Shown here one piece after another: positions 1,951-49,651 of a stretch of 64,000 nt of DNA (position 1 is its first letter; each line of letters opens with the position of its first letter). The notes beneath the pieces were generated by a model. That model was given only the letters and a program-made list of their open reading frames with translations. It ran no database searches and was not told the DNA's origin. The stretch is from Adineta ricciae (Eukaryota), in the NCBI GenBank assembly GCA_905250025.1, contig CAJNOJ010000062.1:301974-365973 (forward strand), given 5' to 3'. The translations under genes and the position numbers were made by a program.

Positions 1951-2946
1951 TTAACGGAAATATGCGTGGACTGTCCAAACACGATTGTTGGTTGTTATTC
2001 GTTTATGTCGATACATAGCAAATGAACCGCGAAATGACGCATTGGTCGCAGCATATAAAATAGGAAAGACTACACATTTAACAATGAGAAAATAATAGGT
2101 AATTTGTAGTGTACGCTGAATTGTTTTCGTGTTGACAAAAATGATCAATATTCGAATGCTTATCCATGGTAAACAAAGACAGAGGAAAGCTAAACTTAAA
2201 CTTAATACATGCCATGTCATTTTCTTTGCAACTAAATATTCTCTACGATCAATGGAATCGAGTCTTCTTGGCCGTCGCTGACACAGATGACGAATAAGAA
2301 AAGTATTTCCAAGAAAAATACACAAGAGTGGAAACGAAAAGATCAAACCGATTTCTGCGTAGGACATCCATAGTGGATGGTGGATTGAGGTTGCATAGGT
2401 TGTACAAAATGATGTTTGGTTTGTTGTTGATGATGTCACTGTCAGAAGATAACTTGATGAATTGATCATAAATGGAATACCGTAGAAGACAAACAAAGAG
2501 AGCCATATTGTCAGAAGTAATATAATGATATATCTACGCCGAATCGGTTGAAATGCTTTTTTTAAATTGTACAAACGAACAAAAATCATAAAGAGAATAT
2601 TATAGATAATACAAGCTATTGAACAGGATTCTCCGATGGTTAATGCAGCACACAATCTGGATGTTAGGGGCTTATCGTATGCGCTGATGAAACGCATCGG
2701 AAGAACGAAACTTCCGATAAAGAGGTCCACAAATGCCATGCCCAAGACGAACATATTTGACCAATGTTTCCCATCCGAACGAACGATGTAGGTTACGAAC
2801 ACACAAACCTACAATTTCATTTGAATATGAGCGTAAACGATGTTCTCGGAAAGCGAACTTACATTTCCAATGACAATTGCAGCGATCAATACCAATAAAG
2901 CAAGTTTTTCAGGTACAGATGATGAATCTTCGTATTCTATTGCCAT
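1951..2946 (-). CDS. Rhodopsin-like 7TM G-protein-coupled receptor, 2 coding exons (2946..2863 and 2808..1951)
   Basis: Exon 1 is ATG at 2946..2944 encoding MAIEYEDSSSVPEKLALLVLIAAIVIGN (start of TM1), donor GTAAGT at 2862. Acceptor tgtag before 2808. Exon 2 is the 1951..2808 ORF with GMAFVDLF (TM2), later TM helices and an NPxxY-like FPILYAATN. About 313 aa in total. Confidence 0.7.
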
Positions 2947-12039: not shown

Positions 12040-14348
12040 CTATTTTCTTGTTCGTTTCGATAGTTTCTCGATTTCTTTGCTCAACGTATCCACATTTTCT
12101 TTCAATGTAATATTTTTCAAAAGTGTATCTTCTAAAACCGACTGTAATTTCCCCATGATATCCAATGATGTTTCCAACGTCATCGGTGCTGACTGATCAA
12201 AGATTTTGTTTGCTGTTGAGCTGCTACCGGTTGCTGCTGTCGTTGTCGCACGATTGTATAACGTTGCCATCAATGATGTGGATGTTGAATTCGTTCGAGT
12301 TTTATTTGCTAATTGTTGTTTGGCTAGATCGGATTCATTCGACGTATACATAAAACCGTCAGCATTCATTGCATAGGCTTGTATAATCTTGCGTTTGTTT
12401 TGCAGATCTTGGGTGAGTAATTGAATATGATCATTGAGAAATTCGATTTTTTCATTGCGTCGTACGAGTAGTTTTTGTTGTTTTAGTAGTTTGTCAATTA
12501 ACTTTTGACGATCGATATCAACGATACTGACCACGACTTCTTGTTCATCATCGGCAGGAACTAATTGTTGGTGTTGTTGTTGCTGATGATGATGATGATT
12601 ATTATTATTATTAGCAGAAGAAGTGACAGAGGGTTGATCAGATGTTGAAATGAGCACAGGCGGCGTCATATCGTTTAGTGAACTATAGGAGCCTGTCGGA
12701 GATCCACGGCCTGATGAATGATCACCGAGATTCTCTTTAACTGGAATGTTTCTTGTTTGACTAAATGATTCGAATGCAAAATTAATTCAAACATCGTTTG
12801 AGTCGTTTCTTGAAAATACTCACCTAGTTTGCAATGCAGGTGATGATGCATCATCATGAGCTGTAGCTTTCGTTTTCTGTAATTGTTGCAATTGTTTGAT
12901 TAAATCTTTCGTATTTGCTTGATGTTTCTTCTTCAACGTTTGTATTTCAATTAAACTATCATCGTATTTTTTGACAATCTCTTCATGTGATTTGCTTAAA
13001 CTTCCAAATATCTCTTCTAAGTCTTTTAACTGATCTCGTAAAGCCGTTTCCGTAGTTTCCAATTGTGCGATTCGACTGTGTTGCTCCTCATTGAGTTTCT
13101 TGAGACTATCATGATGTTCACTAATCTTTTTATGGACTATTTCAAGTTGCTCGTAATTAGTTTGTAGAACGGAATTTTTCTCAGTTAATTTTTGAGTTAA
13201 TTCCAGATGTTGATGTTCTTTCTCGAGCAATTGTCTTAAATCAGCATTATCTGCTAGAGTTTGATTGTGAAGATTTTCGATTTGTTTTAAACGAGAGATT
13301 TCAATCGAGTCTTGTTCACGTGCTGCTAACAGATCATCGTACAATTTCTTGTTGGTTTCTTTGTCACGAACGGCATTTAGACGGAAATTTTCAATGACAT
13401 TCTCTAACGCTAAATGATCTTCAGTCGCTGACTTGAGTTTCTCGAGAAATCGATTATTTTCCTCTTGGACAACAGCTAACTGGGACTTCAGTGCATTGTG
13501 TTCGTTAAGTAACGTATCGAATGCTTGTGTACGTTCATCGTCAGTGGGAACGGCTTGAACAGCTAAATGGAATAGGTTGAAGTGATGAAAACGATTAGTA
13601 TGAAAGGTTTACTTTCAGTTAGTTGTTTGCATTGTGAATTGAGTTGCTCGTTAATTTCGCGTTGTTCGTTCAGATCTCTTTTTAGACGTTCATTCAATTC
13701 TCGTTGTTCTCTTAATTGTTGAGATTCTCCTTTCAAGTGATTTAACGTTGATTTTAACGTCGCATCGATGGATTGATTCAATTCTTTAACTTTTTCCAGT
13801 TCTTTTCTCGTTGTATTTAACTCTGCTGCTTTATTATCATACGCTTGTTGTAATTTCGTATTCATCAATTTAAATTCCGATAATTTCATCTGTAAATTCT
13901 CTTTTTCTTTAGTTAAATCAGCATTTTTCGCTAATAATGTGTCACAACGTTTATCCGAATCTAATTTAGCTTTTTCGGCTTGGGCATAACGCATAACAGT
14001 CGATTGTTTCTCGCGCGAATAATCGTCTTTTTGACGAGCTAATATCGTTTCGTAATGTTGTTGGCAAGCAACTAAACGTGCGTTGAGTTCAGCAATCTCA
14101 CTGCTTTGATTGGCAACAGTTGTTGTCAGATTGGCAATTTTAATTTCATCTTCACTTATCAAAGGTTCAGACGGAACAGTTTCTAAATACAAAATCAGTC
14201 ATATTGCTGCACAAACGAAAGAAAATATTTTACCAGTCGCTTCGGTCTCTTGAGTATTGTGTATTGGTTCATTCTCAGTTGGATTATCTCCGACATCAAC
14301 TGACGGTTTTTCACCGACCGTATCATTTGAATGATCACTTGCATCCAT
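12040..14348 (-). CDS. Long coiled-coil protein of about 730 aa, 4 coding exons, with His/Gln-rich and Ser/Thr-rich C-terminal region
   Basis: Exons 14348..about 14236 (MDASDHSNDTVGEKPSVD..., donor GTAAAA), about 14192..13578 (ETVPSEPLISEDEIK... heptad-rich), about 13565..12822 (AVQAVPTDDERTQAF...KATAHDDASSPALQT, donor GTGAGT) and 12757..12040 (SQTRNIPVKENLGDHSSGRGSP...HHHHQQQQHQQ..., stop). Splice phases checked at each junction. No specific family recognised. Confidence 0.7.
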
Positions 14349-27076: not shown

Positions 27077-30000
27077 ATGGGTGTGCTAAGTTCCCCGTTG
27101 AATGGCAAAACATTTGTGCTCGAACTTGGTCGAGATGTTCGTTTTAAAGCTAAACAAGAACTAATTAATTATCTACGTGAACAACATGCTCAGATTTCGT
27201 ACATTTTAACAGCTAGTGTAGGTTTTTCTTCTCCCTTGAACTCTCTTCCTCTCCGAAAATCTTCATCGATTAAACTTCATTTTACTCTAGACGGATTATG
27301 TTTTGGTTTCGAATGATATTGACACGTATAAAACTCGTCGAGCAAAGCAGCTCGGCATTCCATTGGTGAACGTTGATTATATTCATGAATATCGTAAATC
27401 AACTATTGGAAAAGAGTCAATTGACATCAAACGATTCATTGTTACATCGGCCGAAGATAAAGAAAATTTCTCCAAAACTGGCACCATACCAGTTGCAGGT
27501 TAATAGATATTGTCTTTGCAGAAAATTTATGTTAATGAAATGTTTCATTTCATTTCATTTCAGGAGGAGGCAGTTCGTCAAGTAGTGTAGTAAAACCTGT
27601 AAAATTTGATGTATCGAAAGTTAGGATCTGGAATCACGATGACGTTGAATTGCCGCGTTTTGATGAAATAACCCACGCTGAAATCGGTAAATGGGCCATT
27701 TTTAAGGTATAAATGTTTAGGAAACAGAAATAGATGATCGAAGTAGCATTGTTTTGTTTTTCGTTTGATAGGAAACAAATGATCATTCGGATGTTTATTT
27801 TGCTCTTGAATTACAAATTATTCCGGAAGAATATTTTTATCAGCAAGCGAATAGTGATTATCAATTTCGTTTTCGTTACGAAAAGCAGACCATCGTCAGT
27901 TCAAAAGGAAAAACGTCAGTTATTCAGTATGCATTCAGTAACGATATCAATGAATTGCATCAATTATTTGCATCTTATTACTATCGTATTGCAACAATGC
28001 CTCGAATAACACGCATTCGAGATTTATTACCTGATAAATTGGGTTCGAAATTGCTGTTACGCGTAAGTTGTTGAACAGAACGAATTCTGCTTTCGGACAG
28101 ATGGGTTCTTCCATTTCAGTCATTGTTTCTGCATCGAATTGACACACAAATGCTTAACGATGATGTTTGTCAGCTGATCGAGTCACTTTGGATCGAATCT
28201 ATTGGAGATTTGAACAAACTTCTAACTGTTCCACCTGAATCGATCGCTTTGAAAGCAGTATGAAAATATAGAAGGAGAAAGTGTAATGAGCTCTTTGAAT
28301 ATTTTCCGTAGATTATTGAAGCTGAGGCAGCTTTACTGGAAATCAAATCAAACGATGAATCAGCATCAGAAGCGCAAACGCGTTTTTACTCACTGATTCC
28401 TCATCGACAGCCGCATGTCGTCGATCTTGTTAAAAATCGACGAACTTTGATTGACAAAATCGATTTGTGTCAGGTAAAGTATGAATTTTGAAACTGTTTT
28501 TTGGTCAGACTTCGAATTGTAGATGTTACGTGACATGCTTACTATCAATGAATTGACAAATTGGAATATTAAAGCATCGATCGAAGCGAAATATCGTGCA
28601 TTGAAATGTCACATTGAAAGTATTGAGAAAGATAGTCATGAGTATGCCACAATTAATAGTATGATACATTCGTCCACGAATTCGTATGTATTTTGATATC
28701 TGATGGAGAGATGTCGATATATTTCCCTTGCGACTCTTGTAGGAACGAAGAAGTTATCGTTCATCAGATTTTCAGCGTTGCTAAACAAACCGATGCGTTG
28801 AATTTTCGTTCGACACTGTTCAATCAACGACAACTTTTTCATGGTTCGAAATACAATAATTTTCTGGGCATTCTGTCACGGTAAATCATCGATTCGTAAA
28901 AGCTATTCTGTTCAATTTTCATTTCTTTCTATGCTTTCAGTGGTTTAATGTTGCCGAAATTGGTCGTCGATGACTTGGGAGTGACTCGTACTGATTTCGG
29001 ATGTCTCGGATATGGAATCTATTTTTCGGATTCGGTTTCTACATCTCTAAAATACACAACACCGAGTACAACGCGTCCTGGTCGCCGATTACTATGTATA
29101 TCTCAAGTAGCATTAGGTGAATCAGCGAAATACTATTCCTATGCAGCAAATTTAACACAAGCACCCGAAAATTTCCACAGTACACATGGGATAAAGAAGA
29201 CCAGTGACAATAATTCGAAGTTTATTGTAAGTATACTTCTTGTTATTGTAGGCAAATTTTCAAAATGGACTATTTAGGATGACGAATATGTTATTTATAA
29301 TCTTGACCAACAGCGATTATTGTATATTGTTGAAGTTTCATGGAAACCACATGATAATACCGATCAAGTATTGAAAGTATTACCGATTGTTCGTGATTCT
29401 TTACTTAATCAACTTCATAGCATGAAAAGTGAAAGTAAATGAAGAGCTTTGCACAACTTATCTTCGTTTAACATGACTTTTCCAATTTTGTTTTGTAGTC
29501 GTTGTACCATCATCAATCGAAGATGAAGTAATTCAAGTAGCCGAACAAGATTATGGTTTAATTTGTCCATCATCTGGTCAACTGGTTCCATTGAAAGCGT
29601 TCCATATTCGTGCTCAACTTGTCGATGTAACTGCTGAAGTATGTGGAATGATTTTCTCCTTTCAGTTCATCTTTTCTACAAAATACTTCTTAGGTTGTTC
29701 TCTACCAAGTTTATCACAACACAAGTTCAGTGCCGATCGAAGCCAAATATGTATTTCCACTGGATGAGAACTGCTCCGTTTGTGGTTTCGAAGCTCATAT
29801 TAATAACAAAGTTATCAAAGGTGTGGTCAAAGAAAAGGAACAAGCAAAACGTGAATATCGTGAAGCAATTGAAAAAGGTCATGGTGCGTATTTGATGCAT
29901 CAAGAACAACCTGAAGTGTTCAGTGTGTCCGTTGGTAATCTACCAGCCAATTGCGAAGTGGTCATCAAAATTACTTATGTCGCCGAATTACCTATTGAGA

Positions 30001-31934
30001 ATAACGATATTATCTTTCGTTTTCCAGCCAAGGTAGCTTCATGGCAATCGAAGCAAGCTCTAGAATCGAAGGATCAAACCATACTCCCGTCCATTAGTCT
30101 TGAACGAGATGATTCGCTAATGAAATCGGTAGAGTTTAGCTTGAAAGCATCTGTGCGCATGCCGTATGAAATCAGTAAATTATTCTCTCCAACACATCGT
30201 CTTCGTCGGAAAGTAACCGATTGTGTAGCGATGATCGAAATGGTTGACAACGTTCTCTTAGACAAAGATTTTCTTCTCTCGATAGCACTGAAAAATATCA
30301 ATGTACCACGCATGTTGAACGAAACATACACTGTTTCTGATGAAAATAATAACGTTGAGATGAATGATGAACAATCTCAAGCGTGTATGTTGACATTTTA
30401 TCCAAAATTCGAAATGACAACTAATACGAATGAATTCGTGGAAGTTATTTTCATTATTGACGTGTCGAACTCGATGGATGGACAGCATGTACAACAAGCC
30501 AAACAGTTGGCACACCTATTTCTAACAAACATGAAAAACGACGATGCAAACATTTATTTCAATATCGTTACATTCGGATCAGGTAACTTATCGAATGTTG
30601 AAAACTAATGCAAGTTGTTTTTCATCATTTCATAGATAATGATGAATGTTTTCCAATTTCCTTACCAAATACAAAGGAGAACATCGATAAGGCAAAGCAT
30701 TTTGTTCTGGTTTGTATTGTTTGTCTTTTTTTTTAAATGTAATACTTCTTTTAATGTTATAGCATTCGCTTGATCATCGTGGTAATACTGATCTTTTCAC
30801 TGTACTTCGTCAGTATTCTCTTTTACCATCTCCATGTAAACTTGGCCGACAATTTATTCTTCTCTCCGACGGGCATGTCAATGATCTGAATTCGATTCTG
30901 ACTTTACTAGAAAATCAATCGTCTATGAAACATGATCGTTTCTTTACCTGTTCAATCGGTGACACATCAAATAAGCATCAACTCAAACAACTAGCTAACG
31001 GAGCACATGGCGGTGGACTGACCACTGTGTTTGATTCAAACTTCCGTTCACGATGGAAATCAAAAGTTCTTCTCATTCTCGAACATATTCGTCAACCATG
31101 TGTAACCAACATATCAATTGATTGGCATGGAACTATCGAAAATGAACAGGTGAGATTTACCAATCAAGCACCAAATATAATCCGTTCATTATTCAATGGT
31201 ATGCGTTTAACTGTGTATCGTTTCATTCAAAATTGTCATAAAGCCACCTTGACAGCAATGATTAACGATCAAGAATTTGTTACTACTGTGTTTAGTAATA
31301 AGATGACTGAAACAAAAGGACGAATTTTACATTGTTTGACTGCACGTGCGATTATACATGATTATGAAAATGGTTTGTTGCATACCGATGAAAGTGAAAA
31401 CGAGCTGATCAAAAAACAATATAAACAAGATCTAATTGATTTAAGCGTAAAATATTCAGTCGTCAGTTCATTTACAAGTTTTGTAGCAATCGAAGAACGA
31501 GATCGTGATGAAGTACTTGAACCAGGTAAGACATATTCTTCGAGGCCGAATCAAGCAATGCCTTTTTTGTCTGTCATTTAGGTGTTCGACTACTTGATGT
31601 AATGCTTGAATCAGATATTGATCTATTACCATATATTGGCTGGGATGGTGATCGATCCCAAATAGAGATAGTGAAAGAGAAGCTATTGAATGCCAAACGT
31701 TCATTTGAAAATGCTTCGATTTCGAACAAACTTGAATTAACTCAGGAGTATGAGAAACTTTGTCAAAATATATCGTACCGGTCGGGTGGTGATGCTAAGT
31801 ATGATTTAATGCTAGCAATTATTGACACGTACCGAACAACATTGAAAGATAATAGTAAAGCGTTGGAATTGGAAGAAAAAATTCAACTTGGTAAACTTGA
31901 AAGTACTGTCATTGATTGGTGTCGACTGATTTAG
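27077..31934 (+). CDS. PARP4: Vault poly(ADP-ribose) polymerase, PARP4/vPARP-like: BRCT - PARP catalytic - VIT - vWA - C-terminal region, many exons
   Basis: ATG at 27077 with BRCT-like exon (MGVLSSPLNGKTFVLELGRDVRFKAKQELINYLREQHAQISYILTASV). PARP catalytic signature across 28690-29300 (LFHGS..., GIYFSDSVSTSLKY, LLCISQVALGE, catalytic-Glu region DEYVIYN). VIT domain at 29730-30060 (VFPLDENCSVCGFEAHINNKVIKGVVKEKEQAKREYREAIEKG). vWA with MIDAS motif at 30440-30600 (VIFIIDVSNSMDG), continuing at 30660-31581. C-terminal exon 31602-31934 (stop TAG). A further possible terminal mini-exon 31949-32045 could not be settled. Confidence 0.8.
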
Positions 31935-32051: not shown

Positions 32052-35000
32052 ATGACGAAAGAGAAAGAGTTCCTAGGAATATTTTTTTATAGAGAAATTT
32101 CGTATGACAATAGCGAAGATGAAGAGAGTGGGGAAGAAGACGAAAGCGGTAACGAACATCTTTCTTGCTTAAAGATTGCTTGCAATACAAATCTCTTCAA
32201 TATAGACGATGAATGGTGTGACGAGGGCGAAAGAGAGTGTCTAGTAAGTTGTTTTGGTTCACAGAACGAAAAAATCTTTTATGAACTAACTTATTGTCGT
32301 TTCTTTTTAATCAAAGAGTCGATCGTATTCTCTTGACGAAGGTATGTTAATATGTTTGAAAATATTCTTTCAAATGATTTATTTTGTGAATATTTTCTAG
32401 AGAGAAAAAAAGATTCTGATGTAATTGATCGAATTGAATGCCACATCGCAAGAGCAACTTCACCAGTTAGAGAGTACTGTACATCTCCTGGAGCAGATGA
32501 TTATGATGATGCTGATGATAGTGATGGTGATGTGGGCTGGGATCTCTTTGAAGCTGATAAGTCTGCGTCAGTTTTGTTAACTAGCTTGAGTGAAGTGTCT
32601 AGACCTATGAAGCCAACTGCAGCTGCAGCAGCAGCACAGCCGGTTGCTAGCAAAGAAAAAGGCAAGAAGGAAGCCGAGGAAGAGGATGACGAGGATGCAG
32701 ACTGTATGGGCTTCGGTCTGTTCGATGATTTTTCACCGCTTACATCACTTTCTCCAGTAAATCGTCACAAACAGGATGCGCAACTTGACAAAGCTGTGGA
32801 TCCATTTGCAACCAATGCTCGCCGTTTAATGCCAGATATAGAAGAACATTCACTAGAAATAGGTGAGAACCTTTCACGAAACATTTTTTTATTTCTACTC
32901 ACTTTAATTTTCATATTCATTGATAGCAATGCCCGCTTCTAACGCGCTTGTGACACCCAAGTCGAAATCTATGATCACATCACAAGAAAAGATACAAGTA
33001 CCTACTAAAAAGGATCGTAAATCAGCAATTGCTTCTATAATAACAAAAAAGGCAGTCTTAGATGATAAAGAAAGTACCACTTTTACCGAAACACAATTCC
33101 CACAACAACAACAACAACAGCAACAAATTCCAATGAACCCTTTCACATTCCCTCAACAGTCATTTTCGTTTGGTTCTACAAACGCAAATTCGTTGTTTTC
33201 TAATCAAGGCGCTGTGCCCACAGTAGCACAGTCAACACCATTCTACAACAACACCGCTGCACCACCCTTACATTCATTCACAGCCTTCACATTCAACAAT
33301 AATCAACATTATTCTTCCTCACACCCTGATTTACCATCACCTCGTCAGACTACTACTACTGGGACATCTTCATTTGGTACATTGGAAAATGCTGCGTCTA
33401 CGTTTTCTTCGCCAAACTATTCACCATACAGTCCTTCTTATCCAAATCAAAGCAGTTCGTACACTAGTGTACCTCCACCGCCGCCATCATTCGCTGTACC
33501 CGTACCTTCTGGACTGTTTGGTAGTGGCACAAGTAGTACAAGTAACTTATTTGGTGGCTTCATCGCACCAGGATTATCAGTACCACCACCACCACCACCA
33601 CCTCCACCTTCGCAGACTTTTGGAATGTTTGGTGGCTTCGCCGCGCCAGGATCATCAGTACCACCACCACCACCACCTCTGCCTCCATCTTCGCCGACTT
33701 CTGGACTGTTTGGTAGCTTCGTGGCACCAGGATCATCAGTACCACTACCACCACCACCACCTCTGCGTCCATCTTCGCAGACTTCTGGACTGTTTGGTAG
33801 CTTCGTGGCGCCAGAATCATCAGTACCACCACCACCTCCACTTTCGCAGACTTTTGGAATGTTTGGTAGCTTGGTGGCGTCAGGATCATCAGTACCACCA
33901 CCTCTGTGTACATCTTCGAAGACTTCTGGACTGTTTGGTAGCTTCATGGCGCCACGATTATCAGTAGCACCACCACCACCACCACCTCCACCTTCGCAGA
34001 CTTTTGGAATGTTTGGTAGCAACTTAGCATACGAGGGTGTACCTTCTGTATCAAAATCAGATAATGATAGCTCACGGTCTTCAATGAAATATTCATTTTC
34101 GCCTAGTATTTTTGAAAAAGCACAGGAAAACGACGCGCTAAAGTCTGTGCAAACTAGCTGGATGCAACCATCAGGGCGAGGCAGAGGCAGTGCATCTCCG
34201 AACGCAAGCGCTCGATTCTGTGATGTTTGTATAGAAAAAATAGCGTTGGAATTTCGTATGATTTTTGTTTCATTGTAGTTACGCAACGATCGTAGTCGTA
34301 CCGACTCGATAGAATCTATTACATTCGACCGGACAAGTAGATATGATGATTTATGTGCCAGAAAGAAATCAAAATCTAAATTGTACGTATAGTAAAGAAA
34401 TCGCCTGTATACTAACCGGAACGTATTTATTTATTCGTTTTAGGAAGCTCGAGTCGACAAAAGTTAGCGGCCATGTTGAAGATCATGCACAAAATCTCTT
34501 GCTACTTGATGTTACACCACTTAGTTTAGGCATAGAAGATGTCAACGGTGAAATGTGTACAATTATCAGTCGCAATCGTACAATCCCAACGAGATCAGCA
34601 GTCTATTCTATATTCACTAATGCTTATGCCTATCAGACGAACGTTGTCATTCGTGTTTTTCGTGGTGAACATAGACTGACGAAATACAATGTAAGTAATA
34701 CTTTTAGATAATTACAACGAAAACTGTTTTGTCTTCTCTGTAGACTTTTATTGGTGAACTGATTTTGAAAGGCGTAACATCGAATTTTGCTTCACAAACA
34801 TTACAGATCTCAATTTTCATGGATATCGATGCGAATGATTGGTTTGAAGTTCATGCAGAAGAACCCCGATCAGGTGCTAAAGCAATGATTAGAATCGATC
34901 TAAATAATTGTAAGAATCTCTAATTCGAAAACTGTCGACAATCTTCGATTATTTTGTAGTTAAACTCAGCGCAGTTGATATTGAACGGCATTTGAACTAC

Positions 35001-35760: not shown

Positions 35761-36388
35761 ATTCAATATCGAAAACTGATTGAACGAATTCATTTTTCTC
35801 TTTTAACCCCGAAAACATTTTTCACTTTGAAATAAATATTCTAATACAACTAAACGTGTGTATCCACACATCTACGTTCTTATTCTTATCAAGGGTTACC
35901 AACAAATTCGATATCGTACGTCGTACGTTTCGAATACTTTGTTTAACATAAAACCTGGTATCTGGATGTCTAGTTTTCACTCTCTTTTGATGAATACGAA
36001 TTTCTGGCCTAAGTACTATGATAAGAAAACGGTAATAATTTTCAGCCTACATTACGAGAACTGATATGATATTCGCATTCATTTCCAGGCTCATCCAACC
36101 ATATATCGTTATCACAACATGTTTTCATTCTCTCTCGTATATCGATTCACAGGCAAAAACGAATACTGACAAAGAACGATCTGTGCACGTATCGATTCTA
36201 TTCTCTTTCTCTATCTTTTTTTTCTACTATTCGCGATAACTCGCTGTATAAAAGGAGGTATGTTTAGCGTCTTTCTTTCACTTCTTACCTCATTTTATCA
36301 TAGATCCGTTTTCGTCGAATCAGTAAGTGAACAGTTCAGCGCAAAGAGCGTTTTCCACAAATGCATGTTGACTTTCTTCAGATTCATA

Positions 36389-36926
36389 ATGCAAGCCAGC
36401 CCTGCCCTTGAAAAACTTAAAGGTACCTGGGAATACGTCGATGGTGAACACTTCGACGATTACATGAAAGAACTCGGTGTTGGTTTTGCTCTTCGTCAAT
36501 CAGCCAAATTAGTCAAACCAAAATTAATCATTCAGGAAAATGGAGGTAAATGGTCACTCAAAAGCGAATCAACACTCAAATCAGCTTCATACGAATTTAA
36601 ACCTGGCTGCGAATTCGATGAAACACGTCTTGATGGTGAAAACGTCAAAGTAAGTTCAACCAGAACGCTTGAATTTCATCTTTTCTATTTCCCTATCGTT
36701 CATTTAGTCCACAGTTAAATTTGAAAACGACAAATGGGTACACACCATGCGTGATAAGAATGGTAAAGAATCAACAATCACACGTTGGGTTGATGAAAAT
36801 GGTCAACAACAAATTGTATGATACCATTCGATTTGTGGAATCATGATTATTTGATTATTTTCTCTCACATAGGTAATGAAAGCTGGTGATGTCACCGCTC
36901 GTCGTTGGTACAAACGTGTCGACTAG
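36389..36926 (+). CDS. Fatty-acid-binding protein (FABP/iLBP family), 3 coding exons: 36389..36649, 36708..36815, 36873..36926
   Basis: MQASPALEKLKGTWEYVDGEHFDDYMKELGVGFALRQSAKLVKPKLIIQENGGKWSLKSESTLKSASYEFKPGCEFDETRLDGENVK | STVKFENDKWVHTMRDKNGKESTITRWVDENGQQQI | VMKAGDVTARRWYKRVD*. The iLBP signature GxW...F(D/E)xYMKxLGV...TxRQ and the C-terminal R.Y.R are present. Donors GTAAGT at 36650 and GTATGA at 36816, acceptors tttag at 36707 and cacatag at 36872, phases consistent. About 140 aa. Confidence 0.88.
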
Positions 36927-42809: not shown

Positions 42810-44780
42810 TTAATCGTAAGCACTTAGACCTTCTTGACTTTGAGAAAATGAGTTATTAACCAGCATGGATGGTTCGGCTAAGTATTGCTGGCCTGTTGCT
42901 GGTCGAATAACTCGATAGTGCAATTCATCGGTTGTCGAACTCTCTCTCAATGGCAAAATCTCGTTTGGTATATCAACAAGACAATGAAAAATATCATATT
43001 TAGGTGGTAAAATGCGTCTTTCGAAAAGACACTTAACTAATTGAGAAACAATTAATATTGTTGCCAACGATATAAGCATGCATAAACTTTTCGGTGGAAT
43101 GTATGGACCAAAATGAATTGTTGCTGGAATACCTAACAACGGTTCACCAATTAGAAATCGAAAGAAAAAGCCAACGATGTATGCTGCCAGTGACCCATAA
43201 GTATTCGTGTGTGGAACATAGACCACACAGAGCAATTGAGGAAATAATATGACATAGACGAGATCCGAACTTAAATACCAAAGAACGTAAATAGATGACA
43301 CAAGGATGCCAATGCAAGCTGCGCCAATGCCAACAAGAAATATACCAATACGCATGACAAGTAATACTTCTCTTTCCGATGCCTGTATTATTTAAAGAAA
43401 GAAACTAAGAGGATGATCTTAAAGGAAAAGGCAAGCATACCTGATCACGAAAAACAAGTTTCCAAATGTTTCGAGCAAACATGGAACTAGCGCTGAGCAC
43501 GCTTGAATCAGCGCTCGACATAACTGCAGCAGAAACTGCGCCTAAGCCGATGAAGGCGATGAATTTTGGACATAGATGCAGAAGAACCAATGGTAAAATC
43601 AATTTCGTCACTTCAGGTGAATGAATATCTTTCTTGATATCATAGTCAGTCATATTCCAATCTTTAATACACAAACTGAAGTCTAAACACATTTATACCG
43701 AAAGAATATTTTCTACAAACCGGCAGATTTTGCGATCGCTCCTATGAGTATAGGTGGTATTGCTAATACAATGCATCCGACCGCAGCGCAGAATGACAAA
43801 TACATTGCCTTTTTCGCTGATTTTGCTGATAGTACACGTTGAAAATACACCTAAAAAAGTATCGCTCAATTAGTTCATCATAATATCTGTTACACGCAAT
43901 GCCACAAAAAATTCTCACATTCTAATAATCACACACATCTACATAAGGACAAGAAATCAAGCTATTCTATATACCTGCCAGGGTATTCCACCGAAAATTA
44001 ATAGCAACATATTATCTGTCCATTCTACCATTTGTGATTTATCGAGATGCCCACGCCATTCAGGCCATGTAGTAACGATATCGCCAACACTTTTGTGTTG
44101 CATAGCAAATGGAACAGCAATCCACAGGCCAATAAAGATAAAACCGAGTTGAACAACGTCTGTATAGGCTACCGAATACAATCCACCGAAGAGCGTATAG
44201 ATGATGACAACGGCAGCTAAATTACCAAATAATCAATTACTGTTTTTCTAAAATAATATGATATCAAAGTTGAATATTTACCTGACAAAACAATAGATGC
44301 TGTTATGGAAATATCGGTGAAAATAACACTGATTGTTGCTCCTAACGCGGACAAAATCGCTGCCGACCAGAAGACTTCTCCGAGCAAAGCTGGAATAAAC
44401 AAAAGCCCGCCCATCCGTTGTCCATATTTACGTTGAAATGGATCAAGCATAGTAACATATCCCGCATCTCGCATCGGCTGTGCGAATAGTAACCCACCAA
44501 CAATTAAACTAACTGCATAACCAATCGGTGCTTGACAAGCAAGCAGACCAGTGGAAAAAACTTGTTCAGCAGTACCGTTTATGTAAGCTCCTCCTACCCA
44601 TGTAGCTGTCATTGTAAAGATACCGACTAGTAGGCCAATGTTTCTTCCCGCTAGCATAATTTCTTCGGTATCGGGCGATGCTTCCGATGATTTTTGCTTT
44701 TTTCCGGCCCATATTCCCACAAGTAGAATTAAAATATAAAAAATGGCAATGGCCACCAGACCACCAAGATGTACAATCAT
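42810..44780 (-). CDS. SLC5A7: High-affinity choline transporter (SLC5A7/CHT1-like, sodium:solute symporter family), 5 coding exons: 44780..44282, 44216..43975, 43850..43721, 43682..43441, 43382..42810
   Basis: [32 protein letters not shown]...[37 protein letters not shown]...[68 protein letters not shown] is near-collinear with vertebrate CHT1. Later exons give [32 protein letters not shown]|[20 protein letters not shown] and [31 protein letters not shown] (identical core to human CHT1). Last exon [23 protein letters not shown]. Donors and acceptors located, phases consistent. Confidence 0.9.
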
Positions 44781-46224: not shown

Positions 46225-49200
46225 TTACACGGATGATTCTTGAGTACTAACTATGTTTAACAAAGTTAGTGGTAGGTCTTGCAAAGCCAGTTTATTATCA
46301 ATGAGAACGCCGATAGTTCCATTTAAAGATAATGGAATCTTGCCGGCTAAGAGAGGAGGTAGCAACGCTACCATTGTTGATAATTTCGCAGTAATTTTGA
46401 CTTCTATGTAGTCAGTTGTGATTTCCTCATAGGGACCAATTTTAATAAGCGTAGTACTGGTAACAGTACCAATTTGTTTGTCTTCATTCAATATCTCGCC
46501 AAAATCAGCTCGGACGTCCATTTTTGTTACAGCTATAGACGAACTAAATGGATTTTTCAATACGAGTCGCGTTGAGAGTGTTTTAACAGTGCCAAGTGGA
46601 ATACCAATTATTTGAACTCCAGACAGTTTTTTCAGAAGAATTTCCCGTACAAGTGTTCTCTCGTTACGAAGGCCGGGAACAGTGGCGTGAATTTGTAGAC
46701 CAGCAATAGCTGTGGATAGTAACGAAACAGACGTGCCTACTGAATTATTTGGTAATATTCCACGCAGTTCGACATCATTATCTATTCCACATATCATATC
46801 AGAAATAAATTGATGAGCTACAACTGTATTGCTGGGTGTTATAGCGAATGTGCCTGTTGCATTCAATATTGTACTATTTCCTTGAGGATCAAGATAGAAT
46901 GGATCGATAATCACTAAACCAAGAGAGACTCCACTTTTTACATCTCGTAAATCGAGCGAAAGACGACCAGCATCACGAATATTAACAACCGATGGATTTG
47001 TTATTTTGGTTTTCACACGAAGTGCTAGTTCGTTGGATGACATGGCTCCCGATAGGTCAATATTATCAATATGTAAAAGTCCTTTGTCGAATCGATCATA
47101 ACCCGTCAGCTTAACAGTATCACTCACTGGAATATCTGTTAAAGTAATATGCCCGATTTCAATCTCGGCTACTGCTGCAGCTGTGCCTTGAATTGTTATC
47201 GATACACTTGTGTTCAAAACAAGCTGAGCTGAAAATGCTTTGAATGATTCCTGATCGAGTACAATCAGTTCTTCTTTCGAAAAACTCATCGAAAGTTCAT
47301 TCGTTGTTTGATTATGCTTAACAGGTAAATCATGAAGAATCATGTGGCTCATACTGGGTCCGTTATTAAAACGTATCACATAGTCAATGCTTGTTGTTAA
47401 TGCTTTGAAAGTCATATGGACGTTGGATGGTAATTCAAATAGAACTGACAACTGACCAGTGACATAAACACGGCTGACATTTTGCCGATCGAATTCAATA
47501 CCAAAATCGAGAACTTCAACTTGACGGATCAACTGCGTTTGAATTCCATCAAGATCGGCAGACATTGAAAGACCGCTAACAGTCAAATCCATACCAGTTG
47601 GTTCCGTTGCTGTAGACAAATCATGAAACAATCGAACTGACTGTGTTTGACTATTGAGATATGCAGAAAAGAATTTACCAACAACGGGTAAATCACTTTC
47701 CTGTCTGGGGGCAAGTAGACTACGAACAAGAGAACACTATTAACGAACATTTACTTCTCGTACTACTAAACTGACCCGTGAAGTATTATGTTGTTGCTGC
47801 CTGGTTTCAAAGCTAGCACACTAATGGGTACTCGACCAATAACCGTTTCTGTGTTCCCATCGGCCATCAAAAGTTCGAAATTTTCAAGTTGAACATCAGT
47901 GACACCTGGATTGCCAATAGTTGTATTAATTAAAAGTTGGAGAGCGTTATCTTTTTCTCCATCAACTATGATACTATGCACGCGTACATCTCGAAGGCCT
48001 TCGAGACCCACCAATGAAACAGTATTCTCAACAGTGATACCTTTACTATTCAGAGGACCGAGTGCAAATGAACCAGCGATCGAGGCAGTTCCAGCAACAC
48101 GAAATGAAATCGGAGTCGCTCTATCAGCAGTGATAAAATCTTGTGCAAATTTCTCATACGCTTTTCCTGTATTCGATATTAATAAGTATTTATTCTCAAA
48201 TTGTGATGAAAATGTACTATGACCGATTTGTTTCACTGGTGCTTGAGAAACGTTTAACATACCAACGGGATTGTTATCATAATAAAGAAACACACTCATG
48301 TCCATCGTTTGAATCTCTAGTGGAGATTGCTGACCGAGCGGTGAATTGATCTTAATCGTAATCGACGCTGACAACATCACCGTCTTTTCAGTTGCCGATG
48401 GAATAAGTGACATCGAATCGAATACTAATGAAGGAATCAATTGTTCATCGAAGGGTGGCATAGGTACAACTAATGAAAGACCTTCCATGCCACTGGCAAG
48501 TAAAGAATATGAAGTTGCGTTTGGTCCAGCTACCGCGCCTACTCGACTTGTTTTTCCTGTTAGGAAGTTTTCGATGACAGAGGAAAGTGCAGCATATGCT
48601 TCAGAAGATGCTGATTGAAGTTCGCCAGTTAAAGGTACAACATTCGAACCAGGAACTAAAGTAATATTACGACTAATTGATTTCGCATAGCCAATGGACT
48701 GATTATTATAACGTAAGGAAAATTGTAGAGCACCTAAAGAATATGAATTAAGAAGATATGTAGACAAAGATCTTCTGTACCGAGATCTATTGTAAATATC
48801 GATGGATTGGCAATTTCGATGACAATATCGACAATAATATTCTTTGTGGTCGAACGACGAAGATCGACTTCCTGAATACTTACATTTCGAAGACCGTTTA
48901 AAGCATCGAGTTTAACTTTCTTATTGAACGGAATATTTGAATAGACAGGCATCGCCGATGATATTGGTTGAATAGTAGATTTCGCTTTCAGAAACCATAC
49001 AACCTCCGATTCAAACAGAAGAGAACGAGTAAAATCATCAAACAATCTTTGCTCAGTTACAACAAATGGCGAATCAATTGGAACTATTGTCGGTTTACTA
49101 TCATCACCAGTAATCTTAATCGACTGTTCATTTCGTACAACTCCAACATCATCAACATGAATAACCAATGGTGAAAGAATCGTTGCAGCAATCGATCCTG

Positions 49201-49651
49201 TTCGAGACAATTCCAATTCTGCACGGAGACGAAAACTGTCATTTTTAATATCTTCAATATTAATCCATCGGAAAGATAATTCAACTTTCTCGATCGTTGA
49301 ACGAACAATAGCCGGAACAATAACGTAAAGTACAAGTAAAGCACCGACAAGGATTAGAAGTAGAATAATTGCGATACATAGAAGAATAAAATATTTTCGC
49401 CGCATTTTGATACCTTTAAAACGGCCACACATTGTGCACAATCTGACTTTCTTCGTCGACGATTTCATTGGTAGATCGAGCCAATTGACTTCCTCTTCCT
49501 CATCATTGAACGATGTGACTATGTTTTCTTTATCACTAGAGTTCTTGAAACTAGTTTTTACATAATCCCTTTCATAACCGTCAGTGTAATCATTCGTCTT
49601 GCTAGATGTTTTTATATAAGCTACCGAAGGATCCGATTTTTTTCCACCCAT
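46225..49651 (-). CDS. Large (about 1100 aa) type-II single-pass membrane protein whose ectodomain is built from repeated beta-rich modules with ...NP... strand motifs resembling LEA_2/WHy (DUF3712-like) domains, 3 exons
   Basis: First ATG at 49651 (MGGKKSDPSV...). TM anchor YFILLCIAIILLLILVGALLVLYVIVPAIV. Exon 1 ends about 48784, exon 2 about 48732..47770, exon 3 about 47631..46225 (stop). Repeated motifs IEIANPSIFTIDLGT, TTIGNPGVTDVQLENFELLMADG, KTKITNPSVVNIRDAGRLSLDL and LVLKNPFSSSIAVTKMDVRADFG each sit about 100-120 aa apart. Family call tentative. Confidence 0.6.

What the first reader, a model, noticed from the sequence alone, without database searches (positions are those of the whole stretch)
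46225..49651. Giant type-II membrane protein made of repeated LEA_2/WHy-like beta modules
After a single N-terminal signal-anchor, about 1000 residues consist of about 100-120-aa modules. Each carries a strand motif x-N-P-x followed by alternating hydrophobic residues (IEIANPSIFTIDLGT, TTIGNPGVTDVQLENFELLM, KTKITNPSVVNIRDAGRLSLDL, LVLKNPFSSSIAVTKMDVRADFG). This is the pattern of LEA_2 / water-stress-and-hypersensitive-response (WHy) domains and of fungal DUF3712 multi-repeat proteins. A membrane-anchored multi-LEA_2 array in an animal genome is unusual and may be a desiccation/membrane-protection factor or a novel adhesion-like surface protein.
Basis: inference. Interest (0 to 1): 0.7.

Follow-up and report, generated by a model that had tools for sequence, protein, structure and literature searches.

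The report
Rotifer membrane protein with seven LEA-2 modules
This is an intact, selectively conserved bdelloid-rotifer gene for a single-pass membrane protein carrying seven LEA-2 beta-sandwich modules; it belongs to the catalogued but uncharacterised DUF3712/Tag1-like family, which is otherwise seen in fungi and protists, so it is an unusual animal member of a known kind.

Summary
Window 46225-49651 (minus strand) is a three-exon gene with 47- and 56-nt GT-AG introns, encoding 1107 aa. The protein has an 85-aa disordered N-terminal tail, one signal-anchor helix (about residues 86-113, positive-inside) and a 994-aa non-cytosolic region.

That region holds seven modules of about 142 aa, not 100-120 aa. 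They are arranged TM-(A-B)x3-C, as profile-profile comparison shows.

- **Pfam:** DUF3712 at 134 bits, LEA_2 just above threshold, Tag1_C just below threshold.
- **Fold:** a pLDDT-91 model of the last module puts all three solved LEA-2 proteins (TMEM106B lumenal domain, archaeal Af_0446, Arabidopsis At1g01470) among its top six matches.
- **Host:** a bdelloid rotifer. The best match is Adineta vaga (76% identity) with the same gene order, the same intron positions and dN/dS of about 0.2.
- **Relatives outside bdelloids:** 22-30% identical, colinear, about 1000-1250 aa. The named ones are all protists from several supergroups. No other animal was seen.

The most likely role is a type II, probably endolysosomal, binding or sensing scaffold like Tag1 and TMEM106B. 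It is unlikely to be a classical hydrophilic LEA protectant. Function and origin (ancient retention versus old gene transfer) remain unresolved. It is a new member of a known kind, of moderate interest.

The parts
46225..49651 (-). Whole coding span of the gene (ATG 49651 to stop 46225-46227); 1107-aa product
   Evidence: three ORF pieces joined in frame by two GT..AG introns; tblastn maps the protein back to these three exons only, so there is a single copy in the window.
48781..49651 (-). Exon 1 (871 nt): tail, TM helix, module 1 and the start of module 2
   Evidence: A. vaga orthologues have an intron at the same position and phase.
48734..48780 (-). Intron 1 (47 nt, GTACAG...TTTAG)
   Evidence: Position conserved in A. 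vaga P0001 and P0002, where the intron is 55 nt.
47776..48733 (-). Exon 2 (958 nt)
   Evidence: Exon 2 is exactly 958 nt in the window and in both A. vaga genes.
47720..47775 (-). Intron 2 (56 nt, GTCAGT...CGTAG)
   Evidence: The A. vaga genes have a 56-nt intron at the same position.
46225..47719 (-). Exon 3 (1495 nt including the TAA stop)
49397..49651 (-). N-terminal cytosolic tail, aa 1-85; hydrophilic and predicted disordered
   Evidence: GRAVY -1.03. pLDDT is below 50 for residues 1-84. Poorly conserved among bdelloids apart from the Cys motif.
49412..49438 (-). Juxtamembrane motif C72-T-M-C75-G-R-F-K-G (CxxCG). Inferred to be a palmitoylation or zinc/dimerisation site.
   Evidence: The pattern CT[MLF]CG[RL][YF][KER]G is present in all 13 bdelloid sequences that have a complete N-terminus. 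The nearest non-bdelloid relative, P0025, has CCNRCKGWKM. Of 97 TM-bearing relatives, 48 have at least two Cys within 30 aa before the TM. Levine notes CxxCxGxG in TMEM106B and similar motifs in fungal and plant LEA-2 proteins.
49313..49396 (-). Signal-anchor transmembrane helix, about aa 86-113
   Evidence: Kyte-Doolittle maximum 3.5. It is the only segment well above 1.6. The model shows a helix over 85-122. Charge asymmetry is 8+/0- before the helix and 3+/3- after it.
48887..49309 (-). Module 1 (aa 115-255), odd type (A)
   Evidence: hhalign against M3 gives 4.4e-14 and against M5 1.2e-13. Its second half matches DUF3712 positions 12-82. The family profile aligns the TM plus this module to TMEM106B with E = 0.007.
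48420..48886 (-). Module 2 (aa 256-395), even type (B), with the N282-P motif. Spans intron 1.
   Evidence: hhalign against M4 gives 1.5e-30 and against M6 2.1e-25. LEA_2 PF03168 matches residues 278-344.
48000..48419 (-). Module 3 (aa 396-535), odd type (A), with N420-S-P
   Evidence: hhalign against M5 gives 5.9e-20. The model shows strands plus helix 481-492.
47524..47999 (-). Module 4 (aa 536-675), even type (B), with the N565-P motif. Spans intron 2.
   Evidence: hhalign against M6 gives 2.4e-27.
47089..47523 (-). Module 5 (aa 676-820), odd type (A). Carries the sub-threshold Tag1_C match.
   Evidence: Tag1_C PF22786 scores 22.1-23.4 bits against a cutoff of 27. DUF3712 scores 29.8 bits.
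46654..47088 (-). Module 6 (aa 821-965), even type (B), with the N851-P motif
   Evidence: DUF3712 C-terminal positions 85-125 match its first 47 residues.
46228..46653 (-). Module 7 (aa 966-1107), divergent terminal module (C), with the N999-P-F motif

Best explanation
**Shown.** This is a functional bdelloid-rotifer gene for a type II (N-in) single-pass membrane protein.
- An 85-residue disordered cytosolic tail ends in a conserved juxtamembrane CxxCG motif.
- A signal-anchor helix follows.
- The first of seven contiguous LEA-2 (WHy-type) beta-sandwich modules starts directly after the helix. The modules are arranged (A-B)x3-C.
- The protein belongs to the DUF3712/Tag1-like branch of the LEA-2 superfamily.
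- The same roughly 1000-1250-aa colinear layout is found in protists of several eukaryotic supergroups.
- Columns conserved across the family are almost all Gly, Pro or Asn. These are fold-determining residues, not a catalytic constellation.

**Inferred.** By analogy with the three other type II LEA-2 membrane proteins (yeast Tag1, yeast Vac7, animal TMEM106B), all of which sit in the vacuole or lysosome membrane:
- The protein most likely resides in the endolysosomal system, with the N-glycosylated module rod in the lumen.
- It most likely acts as a non-enzymatic binding or sensing scaffold for lumenal material, possibly lipid. It would couple lumenal state to the cytosol through clustering and its short tail, which may be acylated or zinc-linked.

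It is not a classical hydrophilic LEA molecular shield.
For: **The gene is intact and conserved.**
- The gene model is intact.
- dN/dS is 0.20-0.22 against the A. vaga genes.
- Intron positions and phases are identical.
- The gene order PRP19-Tudor-nuclear receptor-[gene]-SSF transporter is the same in A. vaga chromosome CP075493.1.

**Topology.** One TM helix, charge asymmetry, and 15 of 16 sequons beyond the helix.

**Family.**
- DUF3712 at 134 bits, LEA_2 at 25.7 bits, Tag1_C at 22 bits.
- The Pfam DUF3712 matches straddle the odd-to-even module junctions. This is the out-of-register relation Levine describes.
- 31/31, 21/31 and 14/31 colinear relatives hit DUF3712, LEA_2 and Tag1_C respectively.
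- The nearest non-bdelloid relative, P0025, passes the Tag1_C cutoff at 34.3 bits.

**Modules.** hhalign E-values go down to 1e-30. The full-length model shows seven repeats of strands plus one helix; the helices start at 201, 334, 481, 617, 766, 908 and 1056.

**No active site.** Conserved columns are G/P/N.

**Lysosomal analogy.** The analogy and the Tag1 model come from Levine 2021 (bioRxiv 10.1101/2021.03.12.435176), citing Kira et al. 2021.
Against: - Localisation is inferred only. The tail has no sorting motif conserved across bdelloid paralogues. The YKGF of most paralogues is FKGI here.
- Tag1_C is below Pfam's cutoff in this protein.
- Yeast Tag1 has three modules, not seven. Orthology to Tag1 could not be tested because I had no Tag1 sequence.
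- The lipid-binding idea is itself unproven. The TMEM106B lumenal-domain crystal structure showed no lipid groove (Baggen 2023, PMC10409496).
- A rod of seven beta-sandwiches would suit a cell-surface role equally well.
Confidence: 0.5

Rival explanations
1. It is a cell-surface or extracellular-matrix protein. The seven-sandwich rod projects roughly 25-30 nm from the plasma membrane and mediates adhesion, or recognition of food, microbes or substrate.
For: - Type II topology with 15 sequons in the module region.
- A string of Ig/Fn3-like sandwiches. The whole-model Foldseek search returns receptor ectodomains and bacterial adhesins.
- TMEM106B can reach the cell surface and act as a receptor (PMC10409496).
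Against: - The whole-model matches have TM-scores of only 0.05-0.2 and reflect generic sandwich strings.
- There is only one Cys in 994 non-cytosolic residues, so no disulfide stabilisation. From my own knowledge, this is atypical of animal ectodomains.
- No adhesion-type Pfam domains were found.
- The characterised type II LEA-2 relatives are vacuolar or lysosomal.
Confidence: 0.2
2. It is a desiccation or membrane-protection factor. The LEA-2 modules stabilise membranes during bdelloid anhydrobiosis, as is proposed for plant LEA_2/WHy proteins.
For: - LEA_2 membership.
- Bdelloids carry at least two paralogue clades, each with both Adineta and Rotaria members.
- LEA-2 genes are associated with stress and desiccation responses in plants and prokaryotes (Levine).
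Against: - The module region is folded and slightly hydrophobic (GRAVY +0.17; pLDDT 91). Hydrophilic LEA shields are not.
- The same architecture occurs in Phytophthora, Rhodelphis, Diphylleia, Rigifila, Ploeotia and amoebozoans. I do not know these as anhydrobiotic, and I did not check.
- Copies are also present in Rotaria species. From my own knowledge, some of these do not tolerate desiccation.
- No expression data were available, and no paper in the library links DUF3712 to bdelloids.
Confidence: 0.12
3. It is a lumenal bridge-like lipid transporter. Grooves of the gaplessly concatenated LEA-2 modules would line up into a long hydrophobic channel. The channel would move lipid between intralumenal vesicles and the limiting membrane.
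For: - Levine predicts a conserved hydrophobic groove in LEA-2 (3BUT) and a lipid-transfer function for Tag1, Vac7 and TMEM106B.
- The modules follow one another without linkers, and module 1 starts directly at the membrane. A conserved P-x-[IV]-[IV]-R-S-type motif lies just after the TM in 34 of 97 relatives.
Against: - The TMEM106B crystal structure shows no groove.
- The inter-module geometry of my full-length model is unreliable (pTM 0.35). No continuous groove could be assessed.
- No lipid-binding data exist for any DUF3712 protein.
Confidence: 0.1
4. It is a decaying or functionless relic of foreign DNA (a horizontally acquired pseudogene or annotation artefact).
For: - Outside bdelloids, every named relative is non-animal.
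- From my own knowledge, bdelloids are known for abundant foreign genes.
Against: - The 1107-codon frame is uninterrupted.
- dN/dS is about 0.2.
- Introns are conserved and synteny with A. vaga is conserved.
- Orthologues occur across Adineta, Rotaria and Didymodactylos.
- GC is 0.376-0.378 in the two 2-kb bins covering the gene, against 0.335-0.38 in all other bins except the 0.43 bin at 32-34 kb.
Confidence: 0.02

Closest known systems
DUF3712 (Pfam PF12505) multi-LEA-2 proteins of fungi, as analysed by Levine 2021 (bioRxiv 10.1101/2021.03.12.435176)
   Same: - Strong Pfam match (134 bits, three stretches).
- N-terminal TM anchor followed by gaplessly repeated LEA-2 modules.
- DUF3712 boundaries run out of register with the LEA-2 modules, from mid-module to the start of the next.
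   Different: - The host is an animal (a bdelloid rotifer), whereas DUF3712 was described as almost all fungal.
- This protein belongs to a colinear seven-module, about 1000-1250-aa subfamily. Its named members here are protists, not fungi.
Saccharomyces cerevisiae Tag1 (YLR173W), a vacuolar type II membrane protein that terminates autophagy (Kira et al. 2021, J Cell Sci 134:jcs253682)
   Same: - Type II topology with an unstructured cytosolic N-terminus.
- A lumenal concatemer of DUF3712/LEA-2 modules.
- A Tag1_C match in module 5. The nearest protist relative passes the Tag1_C cutoff.
   Different: - Tag1 has three modules, this protein seven.
- Tag1_C scores 22-23 bits here, below the cutoff of 27.
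- Levine reports no cysteine motif in Tag1 tails, whereas this protein has a conserved CxxCG.
- Orthology and any autophagy role are untested.
TMEM106B (animal lysosomal type II protein; lumenal-domain structure 8B7D)
   Same: - The same TM-then-LEA-2 layout.
- It is the best solved-structure sequence hit of the family profile (E = 0.007).
- A juxtamembrane CxxC-type motif in the tail.
   Different: - TMEM106B has a single LEA-2 domain and is about 274 aa.
- There is no DUF1356 Pfam match here.
- Sequence similarity is marginal and partly carried by the TM helix.
Classical LEA_2/WHy proteins (Arabidopsis LEA14 At1g01470, 1XO8; archaeal Af_0446, 3BUT; plant NHL/NDR1-like proteins)
   Same: - Pfam LEA_2 match over residues 278-344, including the N-P strand motif.
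- The same fold for module 7.
   Different: - Those proteins have one or two domains and are about 125-310 aa (sizes). This is a seven-domain, 1107-aa membrane protein.
- The LEA_2 score is only just above threshold (25.7 against 25.4).

Membership tests
DUF3712 (PF12505) | Whole-protein score at or above Pfam's gathering cutoff (24.1 bits) | tested here: met
   134.3 bits, E = 3.7e-39, three stretches; the best covers residues 180-297. All 31 colinear relatives also match.
LEA_2 / WHy superfamily (PF03168) | Profile match at or above the gathering cutoff (25.4 bits) | tested here: met
   25.7 bits, E = 1.7e-05, residues 278-344. This is marginal: module 2 alone scores 20.6 bits. It is backed at family level, where 21 of 31 relatives match with best E = 7.9e-12.
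LEA_2 / WHy superfamily (PF03168) | Beta-sandwich of about seven strands with one alpha-helix, resembling solved LEA-2 structures | tested here: met
   [not shown]
Tag1 family (PF22786 Tag1_C; yeast Tag1) | Tag1_C match at or above the gathering cutoff (27 bits) | tested here: not met
   22.1 bits for the whole protein and 23.4 bits for module 5 alone. The nearest non-bdelloid relative P0025 scores 34.3 bits. Fourteen of 31 relatives match at E < 1e-3.
Tag1 family (PF22786 Tag1_C; yeast Tag1) | Type II membrane topology with a lumenal LEA-2 concatemer | tested here: met
   A single N-terminal TM helix with positive-inside charge bias. Seven modules follow, where Tag1 has three.
Tag1 family (PF22786 Tag1_C; yeast Tag1) | Vacuolar or lysosomal localisation and a role in terminating autophagy | not testable with these tools
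   This needs localisation and genetics. It is known only for yeast Tag1.
TMEM106 family (DUF1356, PF07092) | Pfam DUF1356 match | tested here: not met
   PF07092 is not among the Pfam matches, even at E <= 10. There is only a marginal family-profile hit to the TMEM106B sequence, E = 0.007.
Classical hydrophilic LEA proteins (for example group 3, LEA_4) | Highly hydrophilic, intrinsically disordered polypeptide | tested here: not met
   GRAVY of the module region is +0.17. It has confident beta structure. No LEA_4 or other LEA Pfam hits were found.
Bdelloid horizontally acquired gene | Closest relatives outside the recipient clade are non-animal, with no homologue in other animals | tested here: inconclusive
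   Of 29 best representatives looked up, the eight carrying an organism name other than the bdelloid Didymodactylos are all protists. The nearest, P0025 and P0031, lie on intron-poor metagenome contigs. The NJ tree has a star-like backbone. Monogonont and other spiralian genomes could not be searched directly.
Bdelloid horizontally acquired gene | Foreign compositional or structural signature (no introns, atypical GC, non-animal neighbourhood) | tested here: not met
   The gene has two spliceosomal introns at conserved positions. Its GC is 0.376-0.378, inside the range of its surroundings. Its neighbours include a nuclear hormone receptor, Tudor, PRP19 and an SSF transporter. Any transfer would have to predate the bdelloid radiation.

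The most novel reading that the evidence does not exclude
The seven-module TM-(A-B)x3-C layout may be an ancient, possibly LECA-age, 'long Tag1' protein of the endolysosomal system. Under this reading, nearly all animals lost it. Bdelloid rotifers either uniquely retained it or regained it by a very old transfer from a protist. In bdelloids its lumenal LEA-2 rod would sense or handle lipid or membrane material. That would tie lysosome and autophagy control to recovery from starvation or desiccation.
Probability: 0.12. Interest if true: 0.7.

Novelty: new member of a known kind. Interest (0 to 1): 0.4.

Why it matters
LEA-2 domains link three poorly understood lysosomal or vacuolar proteins: TMEM106B (neurodegeneration, a SARS-CoV-2 receptor), Vac7 and Tag1. 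No molecular activity has been demonstrated for any of them.

An animal that carries the long, seven-module Tag1-like form would give a metazoan setting in which to study multi-LEA-2 proteins. This protein is conserved across the bdelloids sampled here, is under purifying selection and shares a TMEM106B-like tail motif.

The search also shows that the colinear roughly 1000-1250-aa architecture is spread over several eukaryotic supergroups, not just fungi. That changes the picture of DUF3712 as a fungal family. It also raises a clean evolutionary question: loss in almost all animals, or ancient transfer into bdelloids.

The domain family and the homologous bdelloid proteins are already in public databases. 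This is an extension of known biology, not a new kind of system.

Tried and rejected
1. **BLAST self-comparison** found no internal repeats. Only profile-profile comparison did.
2. **Foldseek with the full-length model** (pLDDT 61, pTM 0.35) returned generic multi-sandwich proteins such as complement C5, transglutaminases and beta-galactosidases. TM-scores were 0.05-0.2. I discarded these as uninformative and modelled module 7 alone instead.
3. **The afdb50 fold library** was not available.
4. **The word-indexed protein search** with a profile of distant relatives returned only bdelloids again. The same search with the nearest protist relative P0025 returned only itself. The taxon of the closest outgroup therefore stayed unknown.
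5. **Naming hits** through cluster look-ups gave organism names for only 9 of 30 proteins, one of them the bdelloid Didymodactylos.
6. **Lysosomal sorting signals in the tail.** I found no [DE]xxxL[LI] motif. The YKGF (YxxPhi-like) motif of most paralogues is FKGI here. This was rejected as evidence.
7. **N-terminal MGxxxS myristoylation-like start.** It is present only in the window and in A. vaga P0001, not in the other paralogues. I did not rely on it.
8. **Pseudogene or artefact reading.** Rejected on dN/dS, introns and synteny.
9. **Rfam, tRNA and tandem-repeat scans** found nothing within the gene.
Full report
**What is at the coordinates.**

The interval 46225-49651 is the coding span of one minus-strand gene. 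Three long ORF pieces join in frame across two short GT..AG introns. The introns are 48780-48734 (47 nt) and 47775-47720 (56 nt). The result is a 3324-nt CDS and an 1107-aa protein. tblastn of the protein against the window finds only these three exons, so there is no second copy nearby. GC content of the gene (0.376-0.378) lies within the range of the surrounding 2-kb bins.

**Topology.**

There is one strongly hydrophobic stretch, at about residues 86-113 (Kyte-Doolittle maximum 3.5). The 20 residues before it carry eight positive and no negative charges. The 20 residues after it are charge-balanced. This indicates an N-in, type II orientation.

The 85-residue tail is hydrophilic (GRAVY -1.03) and is modelled as disordered. 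Fifteen of the 16 NxS/T sequons lie beyond the helix. The 994-aa module region is mildly hydrophobic (GRAVY +0.17) and contains a single cysteine.

**Repeats.**

BLAST sees no internal repeats. A profile built from 18 bdelloid homologues aligns to itself at offsets of about 285 and 570 residues, with E = 2.5e-13 and 2.6e-06.

The full-length AlphaFold model has low overall confidence (pLDDT 61, pTM 0.35). Its secondary structure nevertheless shows seven blocks of strands plus one helix. The helices begin at residues 201, 334, 481, 617, 766, 908 and 1056.

I cut the protein into seven modules of about 142 aa and compared profiles from 31 diverse relatives:

| Comparison | E-value |
|---|---|
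| M2, M4, M6 against each other | 1e-25 to 1e-30 |
| M1, M3, M5 against each other | 1e-13 to 6e-20 |
| Odd against even modules | 2e-4 to 8e-9 |
| M7 best link (to M3) | 9e-6 |

The layout is therefore TM-(A-B)x3-C, with seven modules of about 142 aa rather than modules of 100-120 aa.

**Family.**

Pfam results for the whole protein:

| Family | Bits | Cutoff |
|---|---|---|
| DUF3712 (PF12505), E = 3.7e-39 | 134.3 | 24.1 |
| LEA_2 (PF03168) | 25.7 | 25.4 |
| Tag1_C (PF22786) | 22.1 | 27 |

Scanning the modules singly shows that each DUF3712 match runs from the second half of an odd module into the start of the next even module. This is the out-of-register relation between DUF3712 and LEA-2 that Levine described for fungal multi-LEA-2 proteins (bioRxiv 10.1101/2021.03.12.435176).

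Among 31 colinear family members, 31 hit DUF3712, 21 hit LEA_2 (best E = 7.9e-12) and 14 hit Tag1_C. The family profile's best match among solved-structure sequences is human TMEM106B. It covers the TM helix and the first module, at E = 0.007, which is marginal.

**Fold.**

Module 7 is the most divergent module. Modelled with a 32-sequence alignment, it reached pLDDT 91.3 and pTM 0.81.
- Foldseek has only six hits at E <= 1e-3. They are these same three plus three TRAP-alpha entries.

The scores are moderate, and unrelated sandwiches score similarly. The fold evidence supports the sequence evidence but would not stand alone.

**Host and conservation.**

The closest proteins all come from bdelloid rotifers:

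| Species | Identity |
|---|---|
| Adineta vaga | 76% and 73% |
| A. steineri | 66% |
| Rotaria species | 57-67% |
| Didymodactylos carnosus | 39% |

The A. vaga gene for P0001 lies on chromosome CP075493.1. Its neighbours run in the same order as in the window: PRP19, Tudor, a nuclear receptor on the opposite strand, the gene itself, then an SSF transporter.

Both introns are at the same positions and phases. Exon 2 is 958 nt in all three genes. dN/dS against the A. vaga genes is 0.20-0.22.

A conserved CxxCG motif (CT[MLF]CG[RL][YF][KER]G) lies about ten residues before the TM helix. It is present in all 13 bdelloid sequences with a complete N-terminus.

**Distribution outside bdelloids.**

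An exhaustive profile search of 1.84 billion representatives found 770 relatives at E <= 1e-3 and 184 at E <= 1e-30. Many of the best are colinear over nearly the whole length, about 1000-1250 aa long, and 22-30% identical.

I looked up 30 of them. Nine carry an organism name, and one of those is the bdelloid Didymodactylos. The other eight are all protists:
- Rhodelphis.
- Rhizamoeba and Planoprotostelium, both Amoebozoa.
- Diphylleia and Rigifila, both CRuMs.
- Ploeotia, a euglenozoan.
- Phytophthora.

The supergroup assignments are from my own knowledge. The two nearest relatives, P0025 and P0031, are single uninterrupted ORFs on metagenome contigs whose other genes are also long and intron-free. 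That points to microbial eukaryotes.

P0025 shares the tail motif (CCNRCKGWKM) and passes the Tag1_C cutoff at 34.3 bits.

A neighbour-joining tree shows three things:
- Bdelloids form one clade that contains two paralogue groups.
- Their nearest neighbours are P0025 and P0034.
- The backbone is star-like.

No non-bdelloid animal was seen. Whether bdelloids retained an ancient eukaryotic gene or acquired it before their radiation stays open.

**Mechanism.**

Columns conserved across the family are nearly all Gly, Pro or Asn. This argues for a structural or binding role rather than catalysis.

The other type II LEA-2 membrane proteins are Tag1, Vac7 and TMEM106B, and all three reside in vacuole or lysosome membranes. 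Tag1 clusters in the vacuolar membrane during long starvation and signals to shut off Atg1 (Kira et al. 2021, cited).

By that analogy, I consider a lumenal sensing or binding scaffold in the endolysosomal system the most likely role. Its short tail may be palmitoylated or zinc-linked through the CxxC motif.

This step is inference. No sorting signal is conserved in the tail. The lipid-transfer hypothesis for LEA-2 domains lacks experimental support, and the TMEM106B crystal structure shows no lipid groove (PMC10409496).

The rival readings are a cell-surface rod, a desiccation protectant and a bridge-like lipid conduit. They are ranked below with their tests.

**Verdict.**

The protein belongs to a catalogued but uncharacterised family, and its bdelloid homologues are already deposited as hypothetical proteins. 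I rate it a new member of a known kind.

Two modestly new points emerge:
- The presence of this family in an animal lineage.
- The pan-eukaryotic spread of the seven-module architecture.

The only paper in the searchable library that mentions DUF3712 is Levine's, and it does not mention rotifers.

Noticed in passing
window 33550-34020, within ORF 32920-34278 (+): The GC-rich patch of the window (0.43) holds a 78-nt tandem repeat of about six copies, 80% matching. On the + strand it encodes SGLFGSFVAPGSSVPPPPPP-like FG/proline-rich units. The opposite strand also has a long ORF (33447-34286) rich in Gly. Neither has a Pfam match.
   Followed up: partly
window 44217-44780 (-) and Rotaria sordida protein P0004: The gene just downstream encodes a sodium:solute symporter (SSF, choline-transporter-like). 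In Rotaria sordida the deposited model P0004 (1563 aa, named 'High-affinity choline transporter 1') carries both DUF3712 and SSF domains. It is probably a mis-fusion of these two neighbouring genes, which also shows the adjacency is conserved.
   Followed up: partly
window 51419-52141 (+), 54248-55027 (-), 59837-60940 (-); locus L006: Nuclear-receptor ligand-binding exon, Tudor-domain exon and PRP19 (WD40 plus U-box) exon lie upstream of the gene. They are in the same order as on Adineta vaga chromosome CP075493.1. The window is therefore orthologous to that region, but from a different bdelloid (76% protein identity, dS about 0.74).
   Followed up: yes
loci L006 and L007 (A. vaga CP075493.1 and CP075492.1): The two A. 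vaga copies P0001 and P0002 are much closer to each other (dS 0.17) than either is to the window gene (dS 0.74). Only P0001 shares the window's neighbours; P0002 sits among unrelated genes. This could reflect a recent duplication, a relocation or gene conversion within A. vaga.
   Followed up: no
locus L005 6356-17098 (metagenome contig ERZ27249804): An unnamed eukaryote carries a run of four adjacent DUF3712 gene calls (243, 428, 421 and 2365 aa) on one strand. It may be a single protein of more than 3400 aa split by introns, with roughly 20 or more LEA-2 modules.
   Followed up: no
[not shown]
   Followed up: no
window 1951-2802 (-), 12040-14192 (-), 29730-30608 (+), 36260-36718 (+): Other gene fragments in the window are a rhodopsin-family GPCR, a multi-exon coiled-coil protein in a stretch with strong AT skew (-0.22), a VIT plus VWA protein and a lipocalin. 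All are ordinary animal genes.
   Followed up: partly
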